From an uncultured bacterium (GTDB lineage Bacteria > Spirochaetota > UBA4802 > UB4802), in NCBI GenBank assembly GCA_937920495.1, contig CALEUQ010000039.1:8802-72801 (forward strand): a DNA stretch of 64,000 nt. The letters run 5' to 3'. Position numbers and translations under genes: made by a program. This document shows positions 2,575-61,481 of the stretch, one piece after another (the stretch's first letter is position 1; the number at the start of each line of letters is the position of its first letter). Under the pieces are notes generated by a model, which saw only the letters and a list, made by a program, of their open reading frames with translations, made no database searches and was not told the DNA's origin.

Positions 2575-3573
2575 TTAATAAATTGTTTTTATATCTTGAC
2601 CGGAGTGAATCTTTTTTAGAACGCCGGACATTTTTTGAGTAACGTTTGCATACTCGCCATTATCAGCAAGGGGCCCCTGATATTTATATGGCAGTACTAA
2701 AATCTTTCCCTGATATTTTCCCTCTTCTGTCTTGTTTACATGCAAAAAGCATGTTTTGGCGTGCCTCCCGTCTTTTACTTCCTCTTCTTTTGCCTGGACA
2801 ATTGGTAGGGCAATATATTTTCTATTGCCGTAATCATGTTTATTAATTGCTATCTCCTGTGATAATCGCATGGTGCGGTATGCTATGCCAATCTCAGAAA
2901 GCGCATCTTCCCATTTTTCATGCACCTTGAAAGCAAATAACTGCGATTTCTTAGAAAACGAGGTATATTTTGCTTCATCGGTTGCTATTTTTTTATGAAA
3001 TTCAATTATCGGAACATCTTTTGAATATACAGATCCAAAGCCATTTCGGCTCTTTGCTCCCATTCCACCATAATGGATGAGTGCGCTCAAGGCTTTTTCC
3101 ACTTCATCTTTTACAGCTTCTGACGTGTACATACAGTGTAGTATAAACGTGCTGCCGGGTGCGATATGCTTTCTGGACCAATTATGATTAGATGGGTCGT
3201 AGATTCCCAATCCTAAATAGGTAAAAATATCTATGTTGAAATTCTTGTTTTGCCTGACTACCTCAACCTTTTTCCCCTCTGCAATTTTATCCTTAATTTC
3301 TATTTTCTTTGTTTCTATGAACATTGAGAAAGGTGACTTTGATAGTGAATCATTCATGGCAGAGCCAAATACTGCCGATTCCTGTTTTTTTAGTTCATCC
3401 AGATTATGTATTGGATGTATTGCTCGCCACCAGAAACGAAGCAATCCTTTTATTGAGGCAGCTCTAAGTTCAGGCCTGGATATATCCGCACCCGACATGA
3501 ACAACGGAGTGACAACCTCGATTTCATAACTTTTTTTTATCCTGTAATTATATTTACCAATGTAGAACGCCAT
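2575..3573 (-). CDS. cmr1: Type III-B RAMP protein, Cmr1-like (Cas7 superfamily). It is the first gene of the cmr operon.
   Basis: This 332-aa protein starts MAFYIGKYNYRIK...VVTPLFMSGAD...ELRAASIKGLLRFWWRA, the typical RAMP N-terminal signature. It lies immediately upstream of cas10 on the same strand and is preceded by a 970-bp gene-free region. Confidence 0.6.
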   Translation of the reverse strand: MAFYIGKYNYRIKKSYEIEVVTPLFMSGADISRPELRAASIKGLLRFWWRAIHPIHNLDELKKQESAVFGSAMNDSLSKSPFSMFIETKKIEIKDKIAEGKKVEVVRQNKNFNIDIFTYLGLGIYDPSNHNWSRKHIAPGSTFILHCMYTSEAVKDEVEKALSALIHYGGMGAKSRNGFGSVYSKDVPIIEFHKKIATDEAKYTSFSKKSQLFAFKVHEKWEDALSEIGIAYRTMRLSQEIAINKHDYGNRKYIALPIVQAKEEEVKDGRHAKTCFLHVNKTEEGKYQGKILVLPYKYQGPLADNGEYANVTQKMSGVLKKIHSGQDIKTIY

Positions 3574-4542
3574 TGTTCCCCCTAAATATTAATAAAAGTT
3601 TATTAATATCTAAAATAAACTGACATCCATTACATGAAGTACGATCTTTTTCAAGGCAGGTTTGCAACTTTAGCGTCCAGCCAAATACACCACGCAAGGC
3701 TATATCTGGAAAGTTGAAAAACCGTATAGGCTTGGTTGCGTGTAAAAGTATTTTAAATTTATATAATAGTAAGGTAGCTTTTTGTGATAATATCATTCAA
3801 ACTCCTTGTCTATTACAAAAACTAACAAATGATGTCATACATAAAAACAAAAGTCAAACACTTTTCATTTTTACAAATTCTATCAACTATACTTTTCATA
3901 TCAATAACAGTACAAATTAACCTAATTATATTCACTATTTAATTTAATTTTAATTGTTATATGATAATCGTCCCTATTCCATTTCAGGCAATGACTGCAT
4001 GCAGGGCAGCCTGAACAATCATAAAAAATGGGACTCTTCTGATCTAACAACCCACCTACTTTTACTATATGAGACCCTGTTCATACACATATACACTTTG
4101 TATAATGCAACCTCTGTTTTTACATTTTGTTTTGTTCGATAGTTACAGGCTATAAAACATCATTTTCTTAGCTATCCATATATATTAATGACAGTGATAA
4201 CCACAGTTTTATAGGAGTACTTTGCTTTTTATTTTTACCCGATTATACATACAATAGATAGAAAATCACTTAAATAGACGGTGAATGCAGGTGTTATGGA
4301 TTCATAAAATTATACCAGGTATGGTATAAAGAATTGTACTTCCAATCTACCACCGATTACGGTGTAAACCTTTCACATTGTGATTCACCTGTCATACACC
4401 TGAATCGTCACGCAAAGCGATTATTATTGTACAGCATGGCTTTTAGGTTACAGCAGGATACACACCTTTTACATAAACACAATTTTAATCATCATTAATA
4501 TTTCTACTTGACACCACCCATAACCTACTTTTTCCATAAACT

Positions 4543-6126
4543 ATGGAGCAACTTCATCATCTTATTACTCAATTAAATTCAAAACCTAAAGAAGAGCGTA
4601 ATAACTTTTACCGTGACGCTATATTACCAATTATAAGTGATTTGCTGCATCAGCAATATCAACAATATCTACAATCAAACAATTACAATTCATATTTAAC
4701 TCTCATCACAACGCTTTCACATGATATCAATATCTTACTGCTTTTACTGTACAGCATTAAGCCCAAATACCTTGTGGTATTTTATACCAGCGATAAAAAC
4801 AAGTTGATTGAAAAACTATACCCCCTAACTCAATCACTACAACTCAACATAGAAACAATACAGCTTGATAGTACCAATCACAACAATAACAATAGTAAAA
4901 TAAAGGATACAATCAAACGTTACAAAAAAAACTATCATCCTGTGCTATGCGACATCACAGGTGGCAAAAAGATTTTTTCAACACAAATTGGTATACTGGC
5001 GCATTCATTAAAAACCGACATTGCATACATTGATTCATCAAAAGGTTTTTTACAGTGGGGCATACCTCTGCCCGGCACTGAAATATTATACATTCAAAAA
5101 CCTGATAACATCTTCAATTTGCTTGAAATATATCATGCCAATAAATTGCGAATACGCTTTAACAGCATCTCTTCAAATATAGAGTATGAAGCCGATGTTA
5201 ATGGAAGGTTGTACAGGTTAGGCCAGAAAAAACTAAAACCAGAGGAAATCGATAAACTGGTAGATTATGTAAACCGCTTTTACATGGATATCAATGCTTC
5301 TATCATCAATAATTCATATTCCACAATTAACATGGGGAAATATGCTCTGTCATTTAAAACCCTTCTTTTTACAAAAGAGCTCAATCATTTCGTTTCAATA
5401 CACAACAATTTAACTCATTTAGTCATAGATAATGAATTGAGTGCGTTTCCGTGGGAATTTATCTTTGCTCACTGCAACGTAAGTTTACCACTGTTTCGTA
5501 TTCCCAATCGTGATAGTAATTTCATTGAAAATAATAAATGTAATAATCAAAAAAGCATTGCATTCATCACAGGTTATGGTGAAAATCTCCCGGATTTTGC
5601 AACCACAGTACATAATATTAAATTGCTGTTATCAAAAGAAAAACAATTTTCACTGGCTACTATCACCGCAAAAAACTCATTTGAATTAAAAAAATTTTTT
5701 GCCGAATATAGTTCCAATCCCTTTACAGTGGTTATATTTTTTGGCCATGCAGCATTTGGTAACTGCAGTGAAAACACAGGCTTGATATGCCAGGATGGAA
5801 GTATTTTTTCTATTGAAGATTGTGATGTGCTAAGCGGCTCCCCACCTGAATGCATACTCATTAATTCCTGTCAATCAGCTCGCTGCAGTTTGTTTACACC
5901 CAATTCTTTTGCTCATGCTGTTATAAATTCGGGAGTTGAAACCTATATTGGGACCCATTTTTTTTTAGAATATAAACGAAGTATTTGTTTTTTACAATCA
6001 TTTCTTAAAGCTATTGCATGCAACCACACTTATGCAGATGCGTATAAATATAGCATCGATAGCATTACTCAACAATTTGGCAAAAATGATATAAGTACAT
6101 ATAATTATGTATACTACGGATATTAA
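4543..6126 (+). CDS. Fusion of a CARF-domain sensor to a caspase/CHAT-like cysteine peptidase. It is a candidate cyclic-oligoadenylate-activated protease.
   Basis: This 527-aa protein has, at residues about 75-260, a beta1 strand ending in polar residues (LVVFYTSD) and the strand-4 [DN]x[ST]xxx[RK] CARF signature (DITGGKK). Its C-terminal 190 aa has a caspase-fold pattern: KSIAFITGYG, then a His in VVIFFGHAAFG, then a Cys in ECILINSCQSA, followed by a CHAT-like tail (NSGVETYIGTHFFLEYK). There is no SD before the only possible ATG, so the mRNA may be leaderless. The gene is adjacent to cmr1. Confidence 0.6.
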   Translation: MEQLHHLITQLNSKPKEERNNFYRDAILPIISDLLHQQYQQYLQSNNYNSYLTLITTLSHDINILLLLLYSIKPKYLVVFYTSDKNKLIEKLYPLTQSLQLNIETIQLDSTNHNNNNSKIKDTIKRYKKNYHPVLCDITGGKKIFSTQIGILAHSLKTDIAYIDSSKGFLQWGIPLPGTEILYIQKPDNIFNLLEIYHANKLRIRFNSISSNIEYEADVNGRLYRLGQKKLKPEEIDKLVDYVNRFYMDINASIINNSYSTINMGKYALSFKTLLFTKELNHFVSIHNNLTHLVIDNELSAFPWEFIFAHCNVSLPLFRIPNRDSNFIENNKCNNQKSIAFITGYGENLPDFATTVHNIKLLLSKEKQFSLATITAKNSFELKKFFAEYSSNPFTVVIFFGHAAFGNCSENTGLICQDGSIFSIEDCDVLSGSPPECILINSCQSARCSLFTPNSFAHAVINSGVETYIGTHFFLEYKRSICFLQSFLKAIACNHTYADAYKYSIDSITQQFGKNDISTYNYVYYGY

Positions 6127-6139
6127 TTGATTGCTAACA

Positions 6140-8182
6140 TTAAAATGGAAACAAATACCATAAAGTATTCCATTTGATAACAGGTGTATCTTTATACTTT
6201 TCTTGCACCTTTACTAAATAGTCATACAATGTTGTACCTAAACTTTGTTGTAACACTTTGTGCCATATTTTTTTTATTTCTTCCTGCAAGCTTTTTAATG
6301 AAGCACTATCTTTAAGCGATAAAAGCCAGATATAGTCAGCTCTTATTGATAATTCTTTTGTCAGGATTGTAACATTTTCATTTTTCATGCATAACTCACG
6401 TGCATGATTATAGAAGTCATTTGCTTGCTTTATGGATGAGTTTGAACCATATAGACCATACAAAACCATTACATAATGATATATAGAATGAACAGGATAG
6501 GTTGACACTTTTACCATTGATTCAACATTTGCTTTATACTTATTAAAACACGTAGTTACTATCTCATAATACTTTTTAACATTTTTTGAATAATCGTTCA
6601 TTAGCTCTACGTAGTATATACGCAAAAAATGCAATAATGGAAATAATAATGATCTTTTTAAGATATCTTCCAGCAATTGCATATCATTGTGATATTCAAC
6701 ACCACACCCTTTTGCTAGATTTCGTCTTGCTTCTTCAAAGTTTTTTGTATACGTTTCAATTTGTGCACAGTACTGATACTGACGCATGATGTCTTCAGAT
6801 TGAACAAAGCTTTGTAGTGCTTTTTTAGAAATGTCCCTCACTTCTTCCCAGCTGCCCCCGTGTATTAAAGTGTGATACATCTTTGCTTGCAATTTTGTTC
6901 CAATAATTTCACCAAGTATGCGTGGTTGCACAACTATATTCTCATCGCTTTCACTTAGAAAACTAAATGCCTCGCTTACTTTTTTTTCAAGATTGTGCAT
7001 TTCATTGAAAGACCATTCAAATGCATACATATTGGTAAGATGCACACCATAGAGTACCTTGATACGTAACCGCGCACTTAAATAATCTAAATCAAATGGA
7101 ATTGATTTGATAAATGAGTATGCCTGTCTGTATACATCTTCAAATGTATGTACATCACCTTTATGGTTATATAAAGTAAGCAGGATCATATAACAGTAGG
7201 TATATATCCAGTGAATGTCTTCTTTACGTTTACCATAATCAGGAAGTTTTTCTTCTAAACGTGGCAAAATGTTTTCTATTATAAATAATATATCACTGTC
7301 CAAATCTTTTAAAATTCTATCTTCATTTATTGCATTATAATAAAGAGCAAGCAAAGATGAAAATATACTGTTAATATAAAAGATATTTAGTTTACATAAC
7401 TGCTCTAAAACATCAGGTAGGATTTTTTTTACCGCATTATCCTTTAAAGCGTTGTCGATTAAATTCTTTAACGCATACTCATACAGATTATCATTCATCA
7501 AATTATTAATCTTTTCAGTAATGGTTGGTGAAGCATGAATATATATTTTATGTTGTTCTATCCATATATTGAATTTTTCTACTACTTTTTGATCATACCT
7601 ATCATTACCATTTATATGCGTATCTAATCTATAAAACGTATGAACAATTGCATCAGCTAATTGTAAAAAATAATTTTTTTTACTTTCCACCTCTACCTTG
7701 GTTTTTATGTTTCTATTAGGTAATGGTGATAATACTATGGCCTTTGTAACTAATTCGTTTATTCTTTCTTTATATTCTTCTTCTTTTATTCCTACTCTAT
7801 GTTCGATAGTAACCGTTAATTCACTAATATCCTGGAATAATTTTGATTTTTTTTTAATAAATGCAAAAATTCCCTCAGCCAGCACATGCAGGTAAGTTTT
7901 AGTATCATTTATAACATAAAAACCACGCTGAGGGATAAAGATTATCGGAATAATATCATTTTGTTTACAAAAATCTATCAAATTATCTATTACAGCCAAT
8001 AAAGTTGAATTTGATAATTCGTTACCATGAAAAATTTCAGATTCTAAATTAAATTGTCTAAAAAAATTTGCTACATCGTTACTTGTTAAAATTTTGTCTT
8101 TAATAAAAAAACCACCAACAATACTACGTTTTTGTTTATAACCCTGAAATTTTCCACTTTCATCAAGGTACAAATAAGCCAT
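6140..8182 (-). CDS. DUF3800-domain protein with a large C-terminal alpha-helical (TPR-like) domain. It is the last gene of the sigma/anti-sigma operon.
   Basis: This 680-aa protein has an N-terminus MAYLYLDESGKF... and a later QLADAIVHTFYR, matching the DUF3800 (yiDESG...QlAD) signature. About 480 helical residues follow. It begins 15 nt after the anti-sigma stop, with GATGGA upstream. Confidence 0.5.
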   Translation of the reverse strand: MAYLYLDESGKFQGYKQKRSIVGGFFIKDKILTSNDVANFFRQFNLESEIFHGNELSNSTLLAVIDNLIDFCKQNDIIPIIFIPQRGFYVINDTKTYLHVLAEGIFAFIKKKSKLFQDISELTVTIEHRVGIKEEEYKERINELVTKAIVLSPLPNRNIKTKVEVESKKNYFLQLADAIVHTFYRLDTHINGNDRYDQKVVEKFNIWIEQHKIYIHASPTITEKINNLMNDNLYEYALKNLIDNALKDNAVKKILPDVLEQLCKLNIFYINSIFSSLLALYYNAINEDRILKDLDSDILFIIENILPRLEEKLPDYGKRKEDIHWIYTYCYMILLTLYNHKGDVHTFEDVYRQAYSFIKSIPFDLDYLSARLRIKVLYGVHLTNMYAFEWSFNEMHNLEKKVSEAFSFLSESDENIVVQPRILGEIIGTKLQAKMYHTLIHGGSWEEVRDISKKALQSFVQSEDIMRQYQYCAQIETYTKNFEEARRNLAKGCGVEYHNDMQLLEDILKRSLLFPLLHFLRIYYVELMNDYSKNVKKYYEIVTTCFNKYKANVESMVKVSTYPVHSIYHYVMVLYGLYGSNSSIKQANDFYNHARELCMKNENVTILTKELSIRADYIWLLSLKDSASLKSLQEEIKKIWHKVLQQSLGTTLYDYLVKVQEKYKDTPVIKWNTLWYLFPF

Positions 8183-8197
8183 AACGCAGTGTCCATC

Positions 8198-8749
8198 TTA
8201 TTTTGTTATATTAATTTTAATAATCTTTTTAAAATCAAATAGCAGCACTATATTACCTGGCTCAACTGACGAAAATTGCGCTGTATTGTTAGTAATAGTT
8301 GCTATATCAAATCTACTTCCAGTAAGCAGATGTATTTTTATACCATTTACGGGACTGTATATCACCACATCAATTGCTTTGTTATTATATATAATTTTAA
8401 CTTTAATTATTTTGTCATTATAAGGATACTCTATTTCTACTACCGGAAGTTTTTCATTTTCTAACACATATACTTGAGATTGCACTACATATTTTGAACA
8501 TACCTGAGGAATGAAAATATTATCTTGATATTTAATATCCAATATGAATGTGTCATCATCAATATTAAATTCATCTTCCATTGTTAAGAAATAATCTTCA
8601 TAAAGCTGTCTACATTGTGTGCATTCATTTAAATGATGAAACACTTTATCAATTGTTTTTTCATCAGTAATTGTACCATCAGCAACGCCCAATACCATAT
8701 CCTGCAAATCATCATTGCAATTAGATGAGTATATATGTAACTGCGTCAT
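8198..8749 (-). CDS. Zinc-binding anti-sigma factor (ZAS family, HxxxCxxC).
   Basis: This 183-aa protein has an N-terminal HHLNECTQCRQLYEDY, which is the H-x3-C-x2-C ZAS motif. Its start ATG overlaps the sigma-factor TGA stop (ATGA), indicating translational coupling. The C-terminal ~120 aa is beta-rich. Confidence 0.6.
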   Translation of the reverse strand: MTQLHIYSSNCNDDLQDMVLGVADGTITDEKTIDKVFHHLNECTQCRQLYEDYFLTMEDEFNIDDDTFILDIKYQDNIFIPQVCSKYVVQSQVYVLENEKLPVVEIEYPYNDKIIKVKIIYNNKAIDVVIYSPVNGIKIHLLTGSRFDIATITNNTAQFSSVEPGNIVLLFDFKKIIKINITK

Positions 8750-9378
8750 GACAGTATCTCCTCTTCAACTTCAGGATATTTCTTCTTAACTGCAGATAAA
8801 ATACGTTTTTTGATTTTTTCTATGCGTTCATATACGGAGGGTTGGGAAAGTTTTATCATTTGGGCAACTTCTGCTTGCGTTTTTTTATACAAAAAATACC
8901 ATGTGTAAATTAATTTATCTTTTTCATCAAACGTATCCAGTGTATTTTTAATAATATTTAAAATATCATTTTTCACAATTTCATCTGTAAAATCTATTGA
9001 TACCGGATGGAACAAATCAAAGATGCTAATATTGTCATCATCCTGCTCTTCTGATTGATTGCTGTCAATATCAACTTGTCTAATAAATTTGTTTTTTTTA
9101 TTAACATAACTAATTACACTATTACGTATTATCTTGAACAGGTAAGTTTTAAATTTACTTTTTCCCTTGTAATTGGCAATACCATTCAGAAAAAGTTTAA
9201 AACATACATTCTGGAAAATGTCTTCAATATCATCTTCATTAAGATTGTAATTTTTTACATAATTAATTTTTTTTATAGTACGTTTTATAAAGTCTAAATG
9301 TTCAATGAGCAATTGTTGTGGCGTTTTATCATCCATTATTATAAATACCATCTCAATTGGTAATATTTCATTACTCAT
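8746..9378 (-). CDS. ECF-type RNA polymerase sigma factor (sigma-70 family, regions 2 and 4).
   Basis: Region 2 is DDIEDIFQNVCFKLFLNGIANYKGKSKFKTYLFKIIRNSVISYV. Region 4 HTH is KLIYTWYFLYKKTQAEVAQMIKLSQPSVYERIEKIKKRI. The start is ambiguous: the ORF track starts at 9438, M21 is at 9378 and M35 is at 9336. Confidence 0.75.
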   Translation of the reverse strand: MSNEILPIEMVFIIMDDKTPQQLLIEHLDFIKRTIKKINYVKNYNLNEDDIEDIFQNVCFKLFLNGIANYKGKSKFKTYLFKIIRNSVISYVNKKNKFIRQVDIDSNQSEEQDDDNISIFDLFHPVSIDFTDEIVKNDILNIIKNTLDTFDEKDKLIYTWYFLYKKTQAEVAQMIKLSQPSVYERIEKIKKRILSAVKKKYPEVEEEILS

Positions 9379-9603
9379 TCTTTTATATTTACTGATGTTG
9401 TCAATAATAAAATATTTCAATATATATTTTAAATACATATACTGTACGTGACATTACCATATTACGCTAAACCTTACACGCTTTGTATTAATTAGACTGG
9501 ATTACATTGATAATTATTGTAAAATTTTGTGGATTGGTTTTTTTATTTTTTTGAATACATATACCAGGCAAGTGAAATGTCATAGTAAATTTGAATGATC
9601 TAA

Positions 9604-11664
9604 TTAATGCACCGTATTCTTCATTCTGTACGCATCACGGTCAAACTTCTCATAAATTTTTTTCTTTATAAAAAGCTCTACAATATCCTTATCCAGTTTA
9701 TTCTTATCTGCCTCTTCTTTTATTATACTCAGTGCTTGCTCTAATGTAATGGGCGGTTTATAGGGCCTGTCGGTAGCAATTAAGGCATCAAATATATCAG
9801 CAAGCGCCATGATACGTGCCTGCAGTGGTATCTGCTCACCTTTTAGTCCGTAGGGATAACCGGTGCCATCAAGCTTTTCGTGATGCTTTGCGGCAATCTC
9901 AGGAATGCGTGCAAACTCTGGCGGCCATGGGATCTTGCTTACAAAGTTATACGTATGCACCACATGGCTTTCTATTTCACGACGTTCATCATCGTTCAAG
10001 CTTCCGCGCTTTATGCTTAAATTTTTGATATAGTAATCATTGAATATTTCCAATGCATTATTTTCCACATCACAGCATTCAAGCGACTGCAACAAGGCTT
10101 GCAAATTTTTTACCTCTTTTTCAACATCCATTTCTCTTACCATTGGGTTGTTGAGCTCTATGACTTTCTGGCGCGCCTGAAGTATTGTATGCAACACATT
10201 ATCGCGTTCAGATTCAATAGCGGTAACGTGTTCAAGGCGTGCATCAAATTCAGCTTCTTTTTTGATTTCATTATATACTGCCATAGCATACTTCAACTGC
10301 TGATACCGGTACAGATATTCAAGCTTAAGCAAAATATTTTCAAGATCCTTTGGATACAATTTATGTGATTTTAAAAAGATTGCAGTGTCAATATACACCT
10401 TACCAAAGTCATGCAAAAGTGCCGCATATTCAAGCTCTTTTAATTCGGTTTCAGAAAACGTTGTTGTAGCAAATGGTCCTGATGTGTCCTCACCAATTGC
10501 CTGCGCAATCTTTAAGCACATATCAGCAACCCTGAATGAGTGGCCCGACGTGGCAACATCACGTGATTCAATGGCAGTTACCGATGCCCTGACAAATTCT
10601 TCAAACTGTTTTTGAATCTGACGTATCATGCGGTTATTTTCTATGGCGATAGCCGCCTGCGAGGCCACCGCTTCCATCAAACTTTCGTATCGTTTCTGAA
10701 ATGGCACTACTTTTGTATTAAAATCTTCTTCACACGTTAATTTAATTGAATACGCTTCATTGCCATCATACGCATTTTCAATATCTTCCTTGCTGTTAAT
10801 AAGCTGTATGACACCAATCGTTTTATTTACATGATTAATCATGGGTACTACAAGCATTGATTTTGAGCGATAGTTATGCGCCTTATCAAATGACGAATTA
10901 AATGCCACCGGATCATCAGGACCTAATTTATATACATCGGGTATATTGAGCACCTGCTGGGTTACTGCAACATACCCTGCTATTGAATTTTTATCCATTG
11001 GTATGGTGAACTCTTCATACGGCAGATCCTTTGAAAAGGTGTGCGAGTGCTTAAACCGTAAGAATTTATTCCCGTTTTTTTCTTCAACCAGATATATACT
11101 ACCTGCATCAGCACCGGTAATGGTCTTGCTTAAATGCAAAATTAATTTCAATAACCGGTCGGGATTTTTTTCAATTGATAGCGCTTTGCCTATATTAATT
11201 AACGCATCAAAATCTCTCTGAGTATCTGCAAGCTGATGTATATGCTGACGGCTTAACTTTTTAAACTCGCCATGCGAGTGGGCAATAAATTTTGCTTTGG
11301 ATATTATAAATTTAAACTCTACTTCACTGATTCCATTTCTATACAAAGCAATGACATCCTGCATCATGGTTGTAGTATATTTAGAGCCAACACATACAAA
11401 GCCCACATAAAGATTATTATTGTGTGCTTCAATATTGCGCACTATTGATTTTACTTCATCATAGTGATGCGATGGTATAATATATACCACAGCAGTACAA
11501 CTTCCAGGATCAGCATTAATTGCATGCAGTATTGCGGGCAGTTCATTATATGGAGTGTAAACGTAGTGAATATCTGCGCCACTTTCTTTAGGCAGGGCAA
11601 CAGCATCTTTCAACATACTATCTATAATAATACAGCACTGTAGTTTTAATGAGTCCACCAACAC
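9604..11664 (-). CDS. GAF-domain / HD-GYP-domain cyclic-di-GMP phosphodiesterase.
   Basis: This 686-aa protein has a GAF-like central region and a C-terminal HD-GYP signature (ALLHDFGK ... [14 protein letters not shown]). Confidence 0.8.
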
Positions 11665-21184: not shown

Positions 21185-22144
21185 ATGGCTCTGACCCCAA
21201 CACCCGTACGAACATTACAACATTACCTGGAAGAAGCCATCTTTGTGGGACAGGCCCACCGGCTTGGCGTGTTTAAAGAACTTTATACAAAGCCAGATAC
21301 ATCAGATGGCCTTGCAAAAAGAATGCAATTTGACACACGCGCAACATGGATACTTTTAGAAGCGCTTGTTGAATTGGGATACCTTGAAAAAAATAATGAA
21401 ATCTATAGTCCCACAGAATATTGCACACATCATTTAATTGACGAAAAAAACGATGAATACGAGGGTAACTTTTTACAGTTCTTACTGTATCTCATCAACC
21501 CGTGGCGCACATTGCCTCATGTACTAAGTACCGGAAGTCCTGATGAATCCAGCTTTAAGGAATTATCCATGCATGATTTTATCAAAGGTATGGATTCCCC
21601 CTGGAAAAAGAAATTAGCGCCTGAAATAGTTGACCTGTGTATTGCACATTGCTCTGACCCCACAACCTGCATTGACATAGGTGGTGCCCCCGGAACAATT
21701 GCCAGAGAATTTGTGCGCAGGGGAATTAAAACAATAGTATTTGATCTGCCTCAATCACTAGCAATAACTCAAGATGAGTTGACAACCATCCCCAATATAG
21801 AAGTAATAGCAGGCGATGCAACAGTTGCATTACCGGATCGCAAGGTTGATATAGCATTTTTAGGAAATCTGTGCCATGGGCAAGGGCCTGAAGATAATCA
21901 GAAAATAATAACCATGTGCTATGATAGCCTTAATAAGAATGGTATCATAGCTATATTTGATAACTTACGAAACGAAAGTTATTTAGGTGCAACGCTTGCT
22001 CTTCACATGTTAACCCAAAGCAAAAAGGGCAATATCTATTCACGCCAGGAATATTTTGGATGGCTGGGCAATGCCGGCTTTAAAACACCTAAAGTATACC
22101 AGCTATCCGATAGGGCATGGCAGCTTATTATTGCAAAAAAATAA
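21185..22144 (+). CDS. SAM-dependent O-methyltransferase (Methyltransf_2-like, with an N-terminal dimerisation/wHTH domain).
   Basis: The protein shows CIDIGGAPGTIAREF...IKTIVFDLPQ, with an N-terminal wHTH-like region. Confidence 0.7.
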   Translation: MALTPTPVRTLQHYLEEAIFVGQAHRLGVFKELYTKPDTSDGLAKRMQFDTRATWILLEALVELGYLEKNNEIYSPTEYCTHHLIDEKNDEYEGNFLQFLLYLINPWRTLPHVLSTGSPDESSFKELSMHDFIKGMDSPWKKKLAPEIVDLCIAHCSDPTTCIDIGGAPGTIAREFVRRGIKTIVFDLPQSLAITQDELTTIPNIEVIAGDATVALPDRKVDIAFLGNLCHGQGPEDNQKIITMCYDSLNKNGIIAIFDNLRNESYLGATLALHMLTQSKKGNIYSRQEYFGWLGNAGFKTPKVYQLSDRAWQLIIAKK

Positions 22145-22510
22145 AGAGGGGTACATAAGCCGGATTCTGTTTTGACAGCCATCAATCTTGCATGCATGTT
22201 GCCATGCATGTCTATGCGGCCTACCCGCAACCTTGAGCGGGCAACTCTGATAACGGTTGCCTATTTGGCCTTGCACCGGATGGGGTTTGCACTGCCACCT
22301 GCATTACTGCAGATGCGGTGAGCTCTTACCTCGCCTTTTCACCCTTACCCCACTATGGGGCGGTATATTTTCTGCTGCACTTTCCGTCGCCTTACAGCGC
22401 CCGGGCGTTACCCGGCATCCTGCCCTGTGGTGTCCGGACTTTCCTCACAACAATGCACACACCACACTGTGTATGTACATTGTGCGCATGCCGTCTGTAC
22501 CCCTCTTACT
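22142..22510 (-). ncRNA. rnpB: RNase P RNA (bacterial type A), M1 RNA.
   Basis: The minus-strand read gives AAGAGGGGTACAGACGG...GTGAGGAAAGTCCGGACACCACAGGGCAGGATGCCGGGTAACGCCCGGGCGCTG...GGTAAGGGTGAAAAGGCGAGGTAAGAGCTCACCGC...GTGCAAGGCCAAATAGG...GCGGGTAGGCCGC...ACAGAATCCGGCTTATGTACCCCTCTT. This matches the E. coli P4, P10-12, P15 and P18 consensus blocks. The P1 5' and 3' ends are complementary and followed by a U-tract. The track ORFs 22257-22603 on + lie inside it and are spurious. Confidence 0.85.
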
Positions 22511-23099
22511 ATACTACCACCGTATAAATACTTAACGAATTGGTGCCATATTTTCGCGTTTCTTTTTTTATTAACCTACCTGCACTTTCAGGCATTATAT
22601 TAGTATGGTAATGCTGCACACAAATAACCGAATCCTGATGTATAATGCTACTTTTAGAAATTATGTCCAACATAGAACTGTACACAACGGGTACATCCGC
22701 TATCTTTTCAAACGGCGGATCACAGAAGATGACATCAAACACCATCCCGCGTTCACTGCATAGCTTTACGCATCGTTCTGCAACTATGTTGTAGTGCAGT
22801 GTTCTATCAGACAATTCCCATGCATGAACGATATCTTTTGCAAACTGATAGCGGTTCCTATCGCTATCATTAAACACAACAAGTTTAGCACCTCTACTCA
22901 ATGCTTCCAGCCCAATCTGGCCTGTGCCAGAATACAAATCCAAAAAATTTTTTCCCGTTAAATCCTCACCTAAAATTGAAAATAACGCCTTTTTTAAACG
23001 CTGGCTTGTGGCTTCGGCACCTTTTAGCTTTTTTTCAAACGGTATTATCCGCCCTTTAAAGCTTCCGCCAATCACGCGCATGGTGTGCTGTGAAGCCAT
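22509..23099 (-). CDS. rsmD: 16S rRNA (guanine966-N2)-methyltransferase RsmD.
   Basis: The protein shows MRVIGGSFKGR...RLKKALFSILGEDLTGKNFLDLYSGTGQIGLEALSRGAKLVVFND...FCDPPF. Its 3' end abuts the rnpB 5' end. Confidence 0.8.
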   Translation of the reverse strand: MASQHTMRVIGGSFKGRIIPFEKKLKGAEATSQRLKKALFSILGEDLTGKNFLDLYSGTGQIGLEALSRGAKLVVFNDSDRNRYQFAKDIVHAWELSDRTLHYNIVAERCVKLCSERGMVFDVIFCDPPFEKIADVPVVYSSMLDIISKSSIIHQDSVICVQHYHTNIMPESAGRLIKKETRKYGTNSLSIYTVVV

Positions 23100-23102
23100 A
23101 GA

Positions 23103-23309
23103 TTAATTCTTAGCCTCTTTGATGGCATCATTAAGCTCTTTAATAAACTGATGCACGTCAAGCCCGTTATTAACTGCTACCATACGAATAGTATCCTCAT
23201 CAGCACCCTTACAGCCAATACAATCAAGATTATATTTTTTAAAAACCTTTGCCACTTGAATATTGTGCGTTATAACGTCTTTCAATTTCATATCTTCAGT
23301 GATTTTCAT
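23103..23309 (-). CDS. DUF1858 (hybrid-cluster-protein-associated redox disulfide) domain protein.
   Basis: The sequence MKITEDMKLKDVI...VFKKYNLDCIGCKGADEDTIRMVAVNNGLDVHQFIKELN matches the DUF1858 pattern with its CxGC pair. Confidence 0.6.
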   Translation of the reverse strand: MKITEDMKLKDVITHNIQVAKVFKKYNLDCIGCKGADEDTIRMVAVNNGLDVHQFIKELNDAIKEAKN

Positions 23310-23490
23310 ACTACATTCTCCCACTACAATAGCATTAATTCACTATAAAAGTAAATTCTATGTAAAGCTATCTCCCCTATAACATCATCACATACTATAT
23401 GTAACCTAATGTATAAATATACATACGTAACAACAAAGCTACAATATTAAATTTTGTAAATTTCTACGTCAAGTATACTTTATTTTATTA

Positions 23491-23605
23491 AGTTCCCCGA
23501 AAGCGCGATTGGCCAATCGCGTTTTCGGGGAACTATCGCGCTTTCGGGGAACTATCGCGCTTTCGGGGAACTATCGCGCTTTCGGGGAACTATCGCGCTT
23601 TCAGG
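23491..23605. repeat. A 44-bp near-perfect palindrome followed by about 4.7 tandem copies of a 19-bp unit (ATCGCGCTTTCGGGGAACT).
   Basis: Read directly from the sequence: AGTTCCCCGAAAGCGCGATTGG|CCAATCGCGTTTTCGGGGAACT, then three full copies of ATCGCGCTTTCGGGGAACT and a partial copy. There are no spacers, so it is not a CRISPR array. Confidence 0.9.
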
Positions 23606-23880
23606 TGGCACCCTCATGAGGATATACCATCATGCCTTGGTTAGGATGGAACTGCTACGCACCTTGCAATAACGGCAGGATGGCAAAAGCACTTACATTT
23701 TTTGTATTTTTTATAATTTCCCTAAAATTTTGAATCAGCTTAAAAATTTAAAATAAAATTGTTGCAATTTTTACAGGTCATAAAAATTATTGTCTATCAT
23801 TTTTCCAGATGATTCTACACCATAATTAACTGAATATATTGATGTGTCTTTGAGCAATACAGCGGTGTGTGAATAAAAAA

Positions 23881-23908
23881 TTGACAAATTAGCATCTTTA
23901 GCTAATAT
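23881..23908 (+). promoter_or_regulatory. Putative sigma-70 promoter for rpmB (TTGACA-16-TAATAT).
   Basis: TTGACA lies at 23881-23886 and TAATAT at 23903-23908. A small TTAGC/GCTAA inverted repeat lies in the spacer. Confidence 0.4.
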
Positions 23909-23996
23909 ATTTAGTAACTATCGCGTAAGCAACACATGCTGTGCAGTTTGTTGAATACTATCAAATAATGAATAATACCTTACACAGGAGATAACA

Positions 23997-24185
23997 ATGG
24001 CTAAATGTGAAGTGTGTGGAAAGGCTGTATTATTTGGGCACAATGTAAGCCATTCCAATAAAAAGACCAGCAAAATATGGCATCCTAACGTTCAGAAGAT
24101 TCGCGTGGTTGAAGGCAACAAAGTTGTACGCAAGAATGTATGCACCCGTTGCATCCGTTCAGGTGCTGTACGTAAAGCAATATAA
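23997..24185 (+). CDS. rpmB: 50S ribosomal protein L28.
   Basis: The sequence MAKCEVCGKAVLFGHNVSHSNKKTSKIWHPNVQKIRVVEGNKVVRKNVCTRCIRSG matches L28. Confidence 0.9.
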   Translation: MAKCEVCGKAVLFGHNVSHSNKKTSKIWHPNVQKIRVVEGNKVVRKNVCTRCIRSGAVRKAI

Positions 24186-24773
24186 CTACGATAAAAGCCC
24201 GATTACTACCATTACACCAGCAATAAATATCAAAAAGCCCATAATCCCTGTAACGATAACGGGCAGAACCAGATATCCTATTGCTTTTATAGCATCAAGT
24301 GAATAGCGTTGTGAAACACATCGCATAGCGATGATGATTGACCACAGCATAAGTGCAAGCCACCCAAGACTATAAAAAAATACCGGTGCAAAATATAAAG
24401 AATGAAAGATAAGAACAACCGGCACAATGAAAATACGTGGTATCTGTGCAAGTGCTATTGTATTAATAATAAATCCACCGGATGCCTGATAGCCTGCAAT
24501 CTGTAAGGTAATGGTAAGCAAACCTGCATAGATCACAATACACACACTGTGTATCAGAAACAGCGCCACAAAGCCGTAGGTCACCTTATAGTAAAAAAAG
24601 CCCGACTGTACCGATAAAAGCGACTGTGCAACAATATCCATAAAGACAACAAGCGCCACAACCACTGCGCTTATTACAAAATGCTTCTTTTCTTCAACAG
24701 CAATAATCTGCGAAAGCTTTTCAGGATCAACTATAGCATTGTAGAAATAATCAATAAACTGTACTATATTCAT
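24186..24773 (-). CDS. Polytopic membrane protein, possibly Yip1-family.
   Basis: This 195-aa protein has five predicted TM helices after a hydrophilic N-terminus. Confidence 0.4.
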   Translation of the reverse strand: MNIVQFIDYFYNAIVDPEKLSQIIAVEEKKHFVISAVVVALVVFMDIVAQSLLSVQSGFFYYKVTYGFVALFLIHSVCIVIYAGLLTITLQIAGYQASGGFIINTIALAQIPRIFIVPVVLIFHSLYFAPVFFYSLGWLALMLWSIIIAMRCVSQRYSLDAIKAIGYLVLPVIVTGIMGFLIFIAGVMVVIGLLS

Positions 24774-61058: not shown

Positions 61059-61481
61059 ATGGATGAAGCCAGACTCTTAGCAGAATATTGCAAGGCGATA
61101 GTTCCTGAAAACGTACCTTTGATTGTGATGGGTGATTTCAATGCTACTCCCGATTCACCCGAAATGCAGTATTTTTTACATCAGGAGTATTACGATACAT
61201 TTATAATTTACAAAAAGCATGAACCCTACACATGGAATCCATTAAAAAACACCAACATACAAAAGTATTATACAATTGACACAAATAAAAAATTTGATTC
61301 ACTCTATTCACATCTAAATAAAATACATGAGCTTGAACCAAAGCGAATAGATTACATTATTGTGAATAAATCGATTGCACCTGATAATATAATTGATTCA
61401 CGGGTGTGCTGCGATACTCTTTATGATGGCATACATCTATCGGATCATTTTGGAGTTTACGCTGAAATAAGGATAGAGTAA
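61059..61481 (+). pseudogene. Endonuclease/exonuclease/phosphatase (EEP) family gene fragment, C-terminal half only.
   Basis: EEP C-terminal motifs are present: VMGDFNATPDS and LSDHFGVYAEI. There is no in-frame N-terminal half. An in-frame stop lies at 61008, and the upstream 570 bp is non-coding. Confidence 0.5.

What the first reader, a model, noticed from the sequence alone, without database searches (positions are those of the whole stretch)
23491..23605. A 44-bp palindrome plus a 19-bp tandem array built from the over-represented motif, upstream of rpmB
The sequence reads AGTTCCCCGAAAGCGCGATTGG|CCAATCGCGTTTTCGGGGAACT, followed by three full copies of ATCGCGCTTTCGGGGAACT and a partial copy. 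Each unit contains GGAACTATCGCG, the same core as the dispersed motif. Adjacent units can form alternative CGCGCTTTCGGGG/CCCCGAAAGCGCG hairpins. It is not a CRISPR array because there are no spacers. It could be an iteron-like protein-binding array, a recombination hotspot or a structured RNA.
Basis: seen in the sequence. Interest (0 to 1): 0.5.

Follow-up and report, generated by a model that had tools for sequence, protein, structure and literature searches.

The report
Lineage-specific tandem array of genome word
The palindrome and 19-bp array are real, but they are a young expansion found only in this lineage, in a fast-changing spacer; each unit is one full copy of a very abundant ~20-bp genome word that behaves like the DNA uptake sequences of Neisseria and Haemophilus.

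Summary
Window 23491-23605 holds one inverted copy, a 6-nt centre, then 4.6 head-to-tail copies of ATCGCGCTTTCGGGGAACT. Three other assemblies of the same lineage from two to three samples also contain it.

It is not a conserved rpmB element. All five related lineages examined lack it. The DUF1858-rpmB spacer ranges from 318 to 1258 bp across the clade, and two relatives carry unrelated hairpin repeats there.

There is no CRISPR, terminator, Rfam, plasmid or phage signature. Only the palindrome folds.

Each unit is one complete copy of a ~20-bp word: a T-rich arm, then CAGG, then AACTATCGCC. The 9-mer AACTATCGC occurs 15 times outside the array, against about 0.2-0.5 expected. The 8-mer core is 71% in ORFs, on both strands, without replication skew.

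The word is created in carB by synonymous and amino-acid changes. In one lineage it has switched in concert to AGCTATCGC, a dialect like those of DUS.

Best reading: a slippage and template-switch expansion of one word copy. As a by-product it makes a cluster of four full sites for the unknown reader of the word. The amplified units carry a non-consensus base, which argues against selection for good sites. A function for the array is unproven.

The parts
23491..23509 (-). Single inverted copy of the 19-nt unit. It is 100% complementary to units 2-4 and forms the left arm of the palindrome.
23491..23534 (.). Palindrome of 44 bp (22+22 nt, 21/22 complementary, centre TTGG|CCAA). It is the strongest inverted repeat in the window.
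23516..23534 (+). Unit 1, ATCGCGTTTTCGGGGAACT. It carries T at position -10 of the word, as the dispersed consensus does, so it is the likely founder copy.
23535..23591 (+). Units 2-4, three identical copies of ATCGCGCTTTCGGGGAACT. They carry C at word position -10, which is seen in 1 of 37 dispersed copies.
23592..23605 (+). Partial unit ATCGCGCTTTCAGG. The A is G in L020.
23529..23597 (+). Four full word cores GGAACTATCGCG, spaced 19 bp apart (starts 23529, 23548, 23567, 23586).
23466..23751 (.). Variable segment V2 of the spacer, which contains the array. Its content and length differ in every lineage: about 10-20 nt in L021 and L094, about 100 nt in L095, about 210 nt in L092 and L093, and 286 nt here.
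23606..23751 (.). Lineage-specific unique sequence to the right of the array. It has no significant fold, no Rfam match and no copy elsewhere. It contains an untested 33-codon ORF at 23632-23733(+).
23396..23455 (.). Conserved spacer block to the left of V2, shared by the related lineages.
23752..23810 (-). Most conserved spacer block. It holds a minus-strand promoter-like site, TAGACA-18-AAAAAT with TG. If this site is used, the array lies in the 5' leader of the DUF1858-rsmD transcript.
23881..23925 (+). Predicted rpmB promoter (TTGACA-16-TAATAT), followed by a word copy AACTATCGCG at the predicted +1. AACTATCG is kept in five of six lineages; L094 has AATTATCGC.
23103..23309 (-). DUF1858 gene. 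Its start codon is 182 bp from the array.
23997..24185 (+). rpmB (ribosomal protein L28).

Best explanation
**What it is.** The structure is a young, lineage-specific minisatellite made from one resident copy of the clade's very abundant ~20-bp genome word (T-rich arm, CAGG, AACTATCGCC).

**How it arose (inferred).**
- A single word copy in the plastic DUF1858-rpmB spacer, represented by unit 1, acquired a T>C change.
- That variant was amplified head to tail by replication slippage or unequal exchange.
- One unit was copied in inverted orientation by an intramolecular template switch, which created the 44-bp palindrome.

**What it does.** The palindrome can form a hairpin or cruciform with any direct unit, and this should further destabilise the copy number (inferred). 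As a by-product the locus offers four full, 19-bp-spaced sites to whatever factor reads the word. The array itself is not a conserved regulatory, replication or RNA element.

**The word.** It is maintained by a sequence-specific, lineage-tuned process. The closest analogue is a DNA uptake sequence.

**Shown:** anatomy; reality in independent assemblies; absence in relatives; spacer plasticity; the unit equals the full word; the word's abundance, coding-region imprint and dialect switch.
**Inferred:** the slippage and template-switch origin; what reads the word.
For: **The array is real and its units are near-identical**
- 98% matches between units.
- The same structure is in L030, L031 and L020, with single-base differences between units.

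**It is absent in relatives**
- It is missing from L021-L029, L092, L093, L094 and L095, although the flanking genes are syntenic.
- Spacer lengths are 318, 868, 1258, 475 and 756 bp, against 687 bp here.

**The spacer collects repeats**
- In L092 and L093 the same spacer holds arrays of an unrelated hairpin repeat, GTCATTCCGAACTTGATTCGGAATC.

**No other word-based array was found**
- None in about 110 kb from relatives, nor in JGI metagenomes with this unit.
- A scan of GTDB representative genomes for the unit gave only 19 single hits, almost all in unrelated, mostly GC-rich genomes.

**The unit equals a full word**
- 37 dispersed copies give the consensus T(-11) W T(-9) nnn C A G G A ACTATCGC C, about 19-20 nt.
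- Unit 1's flank score ranks 25/62 among dispersed copies. The amplified units rank 9/62 and carry a C seen in 1 of 37 copies. This looks like mutational amplification of a variant, not selection for good sites.

**Structure**
- Only the palindrome folds (z = -8.5). The direct array (z = +1.7) and the right flank (z about 0) do not.

**The word is actively maintained**
- AACTATCGC occurs 15 times outside the array against about 0.2-0.5 expected, and 11 times in 23 kb of L034.
- It is absent in relatives at 75-78% CarB identity.
- In carB it is made by synonymous choices plus T>S and a conserved G>A change.
- In L094, 4 of 5 orthologous AACTATCGC sites read AGCTATCGC, and 2 further AGC sites were newly made.
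Against: - Copy-number variation, the hallmark of slippage, could not be measured, because every other assembly breaks in the array.
- Insertion of a pre-formed element into V2 cannot be excluded. V2 content is non-homologous between lineages.
- Four perfectly phased full sites for a sequence-specific reader could be selected, for example as a nucleation or uptake super-site. Lineage-specific does not mean functionless.
- The inverted copy matches the array register (ATCGCG...GGAACT), not the word register. A template switch explains this, but the step is not proven.
Confidence: 0.55

Rival explanations
1. The array is a selected multi-site protein-binding element. It offers four full tandem sites at 19-bp spacing for the reader of the word. 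It would act as a nucleation or titration site, as a centromere- or iteron-like element, or, if the word is an uptake signal, as a super-uptake site that promotes its own spread by transformation.
For: - Each unit contains the full word core GGAACTATCGC and the T-rich arm.
- The word behaves as the target of a sequence-specific reader that is tuned per lineage, as the dialect switch shows.
- The period equals the word length, so the sites are packed as tightly as they can be.
- An unrelated metagenome contig has a 28-copy, 19-bp array with the core CAGGAACTATCGC that ends in an inverted copy, which is the same architecture.
Against: - The array is absent from all five related lineages, including two with the same dialect.
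- No second array was found anywhere.
- The amplified units carry a non-consensus base and score lower than the founder unit.
- No rep or par gene lies nearby, and there is no plasmid or phage similarity.
- The resemblance to L044 may be chance. The 9-mer was imposed by the search, and the extra CAGG has p of about 1/256 over about 40 hits.
Confidence: 0.25
2. The array is an RNA-level element. It could be part of a long 5' leader of the DUF1858-rsmD(-rnpB) transcript, read on the minus strand. Or it could be part of a plus-strand transcript that carries the hairpin, four repeated seeds and the 33-codon ORF at 23632-23733.
For: - A conserved minus-strand promoter-like site lies in block 23752-23810, upstream of the array.
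- A plus-strand promoter-like site lies at 23418-23445.
- The palindrome would be a very stable RNA hairpin.
- The ORF has a GAGG 11 nt upstream of its ATG.
Against: - No Rfam family reaches threshold; there are only miRNA-type noise hits on the hairpin.
- The direct array and the 3' flank have no significant fold.
- No terminator-like site is present.
- There are no homologous sequences in relatives, so no covariation or ORF conservation can be tested.
- The hydrophobic tail of the ORF is encoded by a T-rich tract.
Confidence: 0.08
3. The array is a scar or end of a small mobile element, with several directly repeated transposase or recombinase sites plus one inverted site, as at Tn7 or Mu ends. 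The element would have inserted into the V2 hotspot.
For: - V2 holds different, non-homologous DNA in different lineages, and 'empty' sites exist in L021 and L094.
- AT-rich imperfect inverted repeats lie at 23444-23455 and 23743-23754, near the junctions.
- The architecture, with one inverted copy next to direct copies, resembles multi-site transposon ends.
Against: - There is no second copy of the 286-bp segment in the window or in any fetched locus.
- There is no transposase or integrase nearby.
- There are no hits in the plasmid, phage or viral collections.
- The repeated unit is the host genome's own word, which also occurs in conserved genes.
- The junction repeats are low-complexity AT sequence.
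Confidence: 0.07
4. The array is an assembly artefact, either a chimeric join or a collapsed or inflated repeat.
For: All short-read assemblies break at the array, so its length here rests on one assembly.
Against: - Three independent contigs from two to three samples reproduce both junctions, the palindrome and at least 2-3 units.
- The left and right flanks are syntenic with all relatives.
Confidence: 0.03

Closest known systems
Bacterial minisatellite / VNTR loci (for example the intergenic VNTRs used for MLVA typing)
   Same: Head-to-tail, near-identical units of 10-100 bp in an intergenic spacer. The array is lineage-specific, and unit-level polymorphism is seen between samples.
   Different: The unit is not arbitrary; it is one full copy of the genome's very abundant word. 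It is capped by an inverted copy that makes a 44-bp palindrome. Copy-number polymorphism has not yet been shown.
DNA uptake sequences: DUS of Neisseriaceae and USS of Pasteurellaceae (PMC3630211, PMC2817400)
   Same: This comparison is for the word, not the array.
- Density is 0.23-0.38 per kb.
- 71% of copies are in ORFs, against 34.5-65% in PMC2817400.
- Copies lie in both orientations.
- A core is flanked by an A/T-rich arm.
- The word imprints on the protein sequence.
- There are lineage 'dialects' that differ by one base.
   Different: - The phylum is Spirochaetota, where no uptake sequence is known.
- Uptake bias and competence genes were not tested.
- DUS typically form inverted pairs in terminators; here no terminator association was seen.
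- I found no mention of tandem arrays of uptake sequences (the term 'tandem' does not occur in PMC3630211).
Iterons of theta-replicating plasmids (17-22-bp direct repeats, plus inverted repeats at the rep promoter)
   Same: A 19-bp direct repeat array next to an inverted copy, with AT-rich DNA beside it.
   Different: - The context is chromosomal housekeeping genes, with no rep gene within 10 kb either side.
- There is no PLSDB or phage similarity.
- There is no GC-skew switch.
- The units abut with no spacing.
- The motif is dispersed through conserved genes.
REP/BIME, Correia and other intergenic palindromic repeat clusters
   Same: The spacer is a repeat-accumulating hotspot. Relatives carry clustered hairpin repeats at the same locus.
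   Different: The word is not palindromic and lies mostly inside genes. The array units are direct repeats, not alternating palindromes.
HIP1 (GCGATCGC) of cyanobacteria
   Same: A very abundant short word that occurs inside and outside genes, with no agreed function.
   Different: HIP1 is a palindromic 8-mer spread across a phylum. This word is asymmetric, about 20 nt with its flanks, and restricted to a narrow clade that has a dialect.

Membership tests
CRISPR array | Repeats of about 23-50 bp separated by unique spacers of similar length | tested here: not met
   The 19-nt units abut directly and there are no spacers.
Intrinsic (Rho-independent) terminator | A GC-rich hairpin followed at once by a U tract on the transcribed strand | tested here: not met
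   The scan finds no terminator-like site in 23000-24300. The hairpin is followed by array units on the plus strand and by the A-rich UAAUAAAAUAAAG on the minus strand.
Iteron-type replication origin | Direct repeats of 17-22 bp in tandem | tested here: met
   4.6 copies of 19 bp.
Iteron-type replication origin | An adjacent rep initiator gene, or a plasmid or phage replicon context | tested here: not met
   The neighbours are DUF1858, rsmD, rnpB, rpmB and sppA, and the window also holds rpoD and dnaG. There is no match in PLSDB or among phages. The cumulative GC skew is monotonic.
Minisatellite / VNTR | Head-to-tail, near-identical units in non-coding DNA | tested here: met
   98% matches, TRF score 167.
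Minisatellite / VNTR | Copy number varies between closely related strains | tested here: inconclusive
   All other assemblies of the lineage end inside the array. Only unit-level SNPs are seen.
Minisatellite / VNTR | Not conserved in related lineages (a derived, local expansion) | tested here: met
   Absent in L021-L029, L092, L093, L094 and L095.
DNA uptake sequence (DUS/USS) - applies to the word | Very abundant short word (tens to hundreds of times over expectation), in both orientations, inside and outside genes | tested here: met
   AACTATCGC is 31x over a zero-order expectation and AACTATCGCC is 97x over. Strand counts are 13 minus and 11 plus. 17 of 24 copies are in ORFs, in all frames.
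DNA uptake sequence (DUS/USS) - applies to the word | Clade-restricted, with lineage dialects | tested here: met
   The word is present in the window, L034, L092 and L093. L094 uses AGCTATCGC at orthologous sites. The word is absent in L087, L088, L035 and L089.
DNA uptake sequence (DUS/USS) - applies to the word | Competent cells preferentially take up DNA that carries the word, and a cognate receptor and competence machinery are present | not testable with these tools
   Only 64 kb of the genome is available.
Chi / KOPS-type oriented words - applies to the word | Strong co-orientation with the replication direction | tested here: not met
   Counts are 13 against 11 in a window whose GC skew has one sign throughout.
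REP/BIME-type extragenic palindromes | Palindromic units confined to intergenic DNA | tested here: not met
   The word is asymmetric and 71% of copies are in ORFs.
Known structured RNA (Rfam 15) | A covariance-model match at or above the gathering score | tested here: not met
   The only hit at threshold in the window is RNase P RNA at 22141-22506. The array region gives only sub-threshold miRNA-type hits on the hairpin.

The most novel reading that the evidence does not exclude
The ~20-bp word (T-rich arm, CAGG, AACTATCGCC, with an AGCTATCGC dialect in a sister lineage) is a true self-recognition signal of an uncultured Spirochaetota clade. Most plausibly it is a DNA uptake sequence, which would be the first outside Neisseriaceae and Pasteurellaceae. 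The array, with four full sites packed 19 bp apart and a hairpin cap, would then be a 'super-site' that is preferentially bound or taken up, and so spreads by drive and not by benefit to the host.
Probability: 0.2. Interest if true: 0.8.

Novelty: new member of a known kind. Interest (0 to 1): 0.42.

Why it matters
On its own the array is a strain marker. It is also a likely cause of assembly breaks; every short-read assembly of this lineage ends in it. It says little about rpmB control.

Its value is as a pointer to the word. The unit is one complete copy of a very abundant, clade-restricted word that rewrites coding sequence and has switched dialect in concert in a sister lineage. That behaviour has so far been documented mainly for the uptake sequences of two proteobacterial families.

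If a reader protein or an uptake bias exists in these Spirochaetota, the array gives a ready-made, multi-site natural substrate for binding or uptake assays. The AAC and AGC dialect pair gives a built-in specificity control.

Tried and rejected
**Searches for the unit or array elsewhere**
- GTDB representative genomes, scanned for the unit: 19 single hits, almost all in unrelated, mostly GC-rich genomes. The 'Spirochaetes' hit L018 lies in GC-rich DNA that looks coding. All were judged chance.
- IMG/VR, scanned for the rotated unit and for motif pairs at 19-nt spacing: one and four unrelated hits.
- JGI metagenomes, scanned for AACTATCGC-N10-AACTATCGC: 47 hits, none with this unit.
  - L054 looked similar, but it is an ABC-transporter coding sequence (NYRAREELSRL) in a HIP1-rich genome.
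  - L044 and L067 are a striking 28-copy, 19-bp array with the same core and a terminal inverted copy. Their other repeats (GGACCGGACTG) are absent from the window, and the match is within chance expectation.

**Searches for known kinds of element**
- Rfam at gathering and at E<10 found nothing relevant. ARAGORN found no tRNA.
- No other copy of the 430-bp region exists in the window, the fetched loci, PLSDB or phages.
- A literature search for the 9-mer found only primers.

**Readings of the word that were considered and dropped (by eye against consensus sequences recalled from memory, no tool run, unless a call is cited)**
- Sigma-54, ECF sigma, sigma-28, a -10 element, a DnaA box and IHF: the spacing or key bases do not fit.
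- Chi or KOPS: no strand skew.
- An apparent related word in L087 and L088 (ACAGGGAA): it has no extended consensus and is probably codon bias.

**Unresolved attempts**
- A pairwise alignment of V2 with L095, meant to find an ancestral single copy, was inconclusive.
- The exact insertion boundaries and any target duplication could not be defined, because the spacer is too diverged.

Full report

Yes. Window 23491-23605 reads AGTTCCCCGAAAGCGCGAT-TGGCCA-ATCGCGTTTTCGGGGAACT. Three exact copies of ATCGCGCTTTCGGGGAACT follow, and then ATCGCGCTTTCAGG.

- TRF reports a 19-nt period, 4.6 copies, 98% matches and score 167. The next best array in the 64 kb scores 44.
- The unit matches five times with up to 3 mismatches, against 0.01 expected by chance. 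One of the five copies is on the minus strand.
- The palindrome is 22+22 nt with no loop and 21/22 complementary. The single inverted copy is 100% complementary to units 2-4.
- It is the strongest inverted repeat in the window. As DNA it folds at -22.2 kcal/mol, z = -8.5.
- The direct array alone has no structure (z = +1.7).

**2. Is it an artefact?**

No. Exact-protein look-ups with the flanking genes recovered independent contigs of the same lineage.

- L030 (ENA ERZ6863929) and L031 (Logan ERR9287621) run from DUF1858 into the palindrome and two to three units, then end.
- L020 (Logan ERR9287621) starts in the last units and runs into rpmB.
- The flanks are 99.5-100% identical to the window.
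- L030 has a G>A change in unit 2, and L020 has G for A in the partial unit.
- Because all these assemblies break in the array, the copy number outside the window is unknown.

**3. Context**

- The organism is an uncultured member of Spirochaetota. The best named CarB hits are Spirochaetes/Spirochaetota MAGs at 72-76% identity, and Leptospira is at 64%.
- The array lies in a divergent spacer. To its left is a DUF1858 gene (23103-23309, minus strand), followed by rsmD and by RNase P RNA at 22141-22506. To its right is rpmB (23997-24185, plus strand).
- The best promoter-like site for rpmB is TTGACA-16-TAATAT at 23881-23908. This is 276 bp beyond the array.

**4. Comparison with relatives**

RsmD homologues define a series of lineages at 77-86% identity. 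The locus is syntenic in all of them. The spacer is not.

| Lineage | Spacer length (bp) |
|---|---|
| L021-type | 318 |
| L094 | 475 |
| window | 687 |
| L095 | 756 |
| L092 | 868 |
| L093 | 1258 |

- A multiple alignment shows three conserved blocks. In window coordinates they are 23396-23455, 23752-23810, and the rpmB promoter region at about 23870-23925. Two variable segments lie between and beside them.
- The array lies in variable segment V2 (23466-23751). V2 is about 10-20 nt in L021 and L094, about 100 nt in L095 and about 210 nt in L092 and L093. Its sequence is not homologous between these groups.
- None of the relatives has the array or the unit.
- In the other variable segment, L092 and L093 carry 2 and about 10 modules of an unrelated hairpin repeat, GTCATTCCGAACTTGATTCGGAATC. 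That repeat also forms arrays at other loci of those genomes and is absent from the window.
- The spacer is therefore a hotspot for repeat gain. The array is one lineage's contribution, not part of a conserved control region.

**5. What the unit is**

- The 9-mer AACTATCGC occurs 15 times outside the array, against 0.2 expected from shuffles and 0.48 at zero order. With ACTATCGCC it tops the 9-mer over-representation ranking of the window, and AACTATCGCC tops the 10-mer ranking.
- The 8-mer core ACTATCGC occurs 24 times.
- Aligning 37 dispersed copies from the window and L034 shows that the word is longer. T is present at -9 in 32/37 copies and at -11 in 24/37. Then come C-A-G-G-A, the core, and C, about 19-20 nt in all.
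- That is the array period. For example, unit 1 with its flanks, cgTTTTCGGGGAACTATCGCG, compares with the dispersed copy at 61095, cgTTTTCAGGAACTATCGCC.
- Scored on the flanks only, unit 1 ranks 25/62 among dispersed copies. The amplified units 2-4 rank 9/62, because of a C at -10 that is seen in 1 of 37 dispersed copies. The inverted copy carries this C too.
- So a variant that departs from the consensus was the one amplified. This argues for mutational expansion and against selection for optimal sites.

**6. What the word is like**

- **Distribution.** 17 of the 24 core copies are in ORFs, in all reading frames, 13 sense and 5 antisense. One antisense frame contains a stop codon. Strand counts are 13 minus and 11 plus in a window whose GC skew has one sign, so the word is not Chi- or KOPS-like.
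- **Range across the clade.** The word is equally abundant in L034, L092 and L093, at about 0.8-0.9 CTATCG per kb. It is absent in relatives at 75-78% CarB identity, namely L087, L088, L035 and L089.
- **Imprint on protein.** In carB the two word copies are made by synonymous choices, a T>S change, and a G>A change at a glycine that all four word-free relatives conserve.
- **Dialect.** In lineage L094 the dominant form is AGCTATCGC, 7 copies against 1 in 20 kb. At 4 of 5 orthologous sites where other lineages have AACTATCGC, L094 has AGCTATCGC. Two further AGC sites were newly completed there. Such concerted change at dispersed sites needs an active, sequence-specific process.
- **Closest described behaviour.** This is the DNA uptake sequences: their dialects (PMC3630211), and their density, ORF share and coevolution with the proteome (PMC2817400).
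- Uptake bias and competence genes could not be tested. Other readers, such as a nucleoid protein or a biased repair system, are not excluded.

**7. What the array is not**

- Not CRISPR, because there are no spacers.
- Not a terminator. None was scanned, and there is no U tract on either strand.
- Not a known RNA.
- Not a structured RNA beyond the hairpin.
- Not a replicon origin. There is no rep gene, the neighbours are housekeeping genes, the GC skew is monotonic, and there are no plasmid or phage hits.
- Not a repeated mobile element, as far as the available sequence shows.

**8. Most likely mechanism**

A resident word copy in the plastic V2 segment expanded by slippage or unequal exchange. 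It also acquired an inverted copy by a template switch. The result is a hairpin-capped minisatellite with four full word cores 19 bp apart.

This part is inferred from four observations: the units are near-identical, the amplified variant is off-consensus, the array is restricted to one lineage, and the spacer has a record of repeat gain.

Whatever reads the word would see a dense site cluster here. Whether that has been co-opted is open; I put it at about 0.25. If the conserved minus-strand promoter-like site in block 23752-23810 is used, the array also sits in a 5' leader of about 450 nt of the DUF1858-rsmD transcript.

**9. Verdict**

It is not CRISPR and it is built from the motif. It is not a conserved rpmB element or a structured RNA.
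- The array is a new member of a known kind, a bacterial minisatellite, and is of modest interest in itself.
- The more notable result is the word, with its uptake-sequence-like properties and its dialect switch in a phylum where nothing of the kind is described.

Noticed in passing
window-wide, e.g. 12290(-), 21136(-), 31174(+), 53843(-), 54508(+), 59292(+), 61095(-), 62561(+); also L034, L092, L093, L094: A very abundant ~20-bp word (T-rich arm, CAGG, AACTATCGCC). The 8-mer core occurs about once per 2.7 kb, is 71% in ORFs and lies in both orientations. It is made in carB by synonymous and amino-acid changes. It is absent in relatives at 75-78% CarB identity. In lineage L094 it has switched in concert to AGCTATCGC. 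It behaves like DUS/USS dialects.
   Followed up: yes
window 23914-23925; same position in L021, L092, L093, L094, L095: One word copy sits 7-8 nt after the -10 hexamer of the predicted rpmB promoter, at about +1. AACTATCG is kept in five of six lineages while the flanks diverge; L094 has AATTATCGC. Its role is unknown.
   Followed up: partly
L093 9204-9756 and 18022-18361; L092 18315-18414 and the spacer 8731-9790: Relatives carry arrays of a hairpin repeat, GTCATTCCGAACTTGATTCGGAATC, with 37-38-nt and 112-186-nt periods. These lie in the same DUF1858-rpmB spacer and at other intergenic loci, and look MITE- or REP-like. The repeat is absent from the window lineage.
   Followed up: partly
window 23752-23810: The most conserved block of the spacer in all six lineages. 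It contains a minus-strand promoter-like site, TAGACA-18-AAAAAT with TG. It may be the real DUF1858-rsmD promoter or an operator.
   Followed up: no
window 23632-23733 (+): A 33-codon ORF, MPWLGWNCYAPCNNGRMAKALTFFVFFIISLKF, with GAGG 11 nt upstream of the ATG. The hydrophobic tail is encoded by a T-rich tract, so it is probably a chance ORF. It has no homologous sequence in relatives.
   Followed up: no
window 60612(+) and 60666(-); L034 5326(+) and 5375(-): An inverted pair of word copies, about 50 bp apart, is conserved between two lineages. It lies just upstream of a TTGACT promoter-like site of the 549-aa gene.
   Followed up: partly
window 2575-9438: A RAMP-superfamily protein (2575-3573, minus strand), a CHAT-domain protein (4543-6126, plus strand), a DUF3800 protein and an ECF-like sigma factor. 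This may be a type III CRISPR-associated or CHAT-protease defence module. No copy of the word core lies in the first 10.8 kb of the window.
   Followed up: no
window 22141-22506 (-): RNase P RNA (class A, 301 bits) starts 3 nt after the rsmD stop codon, so it may be co-transcribed with DUF1858-rsmD.
   Followed up: no
L044 381-902 and L067 (JGI Ga0247695_1009870, Ga0247692_1011677): A 27.7-copy degenerate 19-bp array, TCAGRAACTATCRCAYRYR, ending in an inverted copy. Beside it is a cluster of GGACCGGAC(TG) inverted repeats. It looks like a plasmid or phage origin or partition site. It shares the period and the core of the window's word, but the match may be chance.
   Followed up: partly
L034 13970-14746 and 17640-18416: A segmental duplication of the ARMT1-like gene region in the sister lineage, including its pair of word copies (14502/14557 and 18172/18227). 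The window has a single copy.
   Followed up: no
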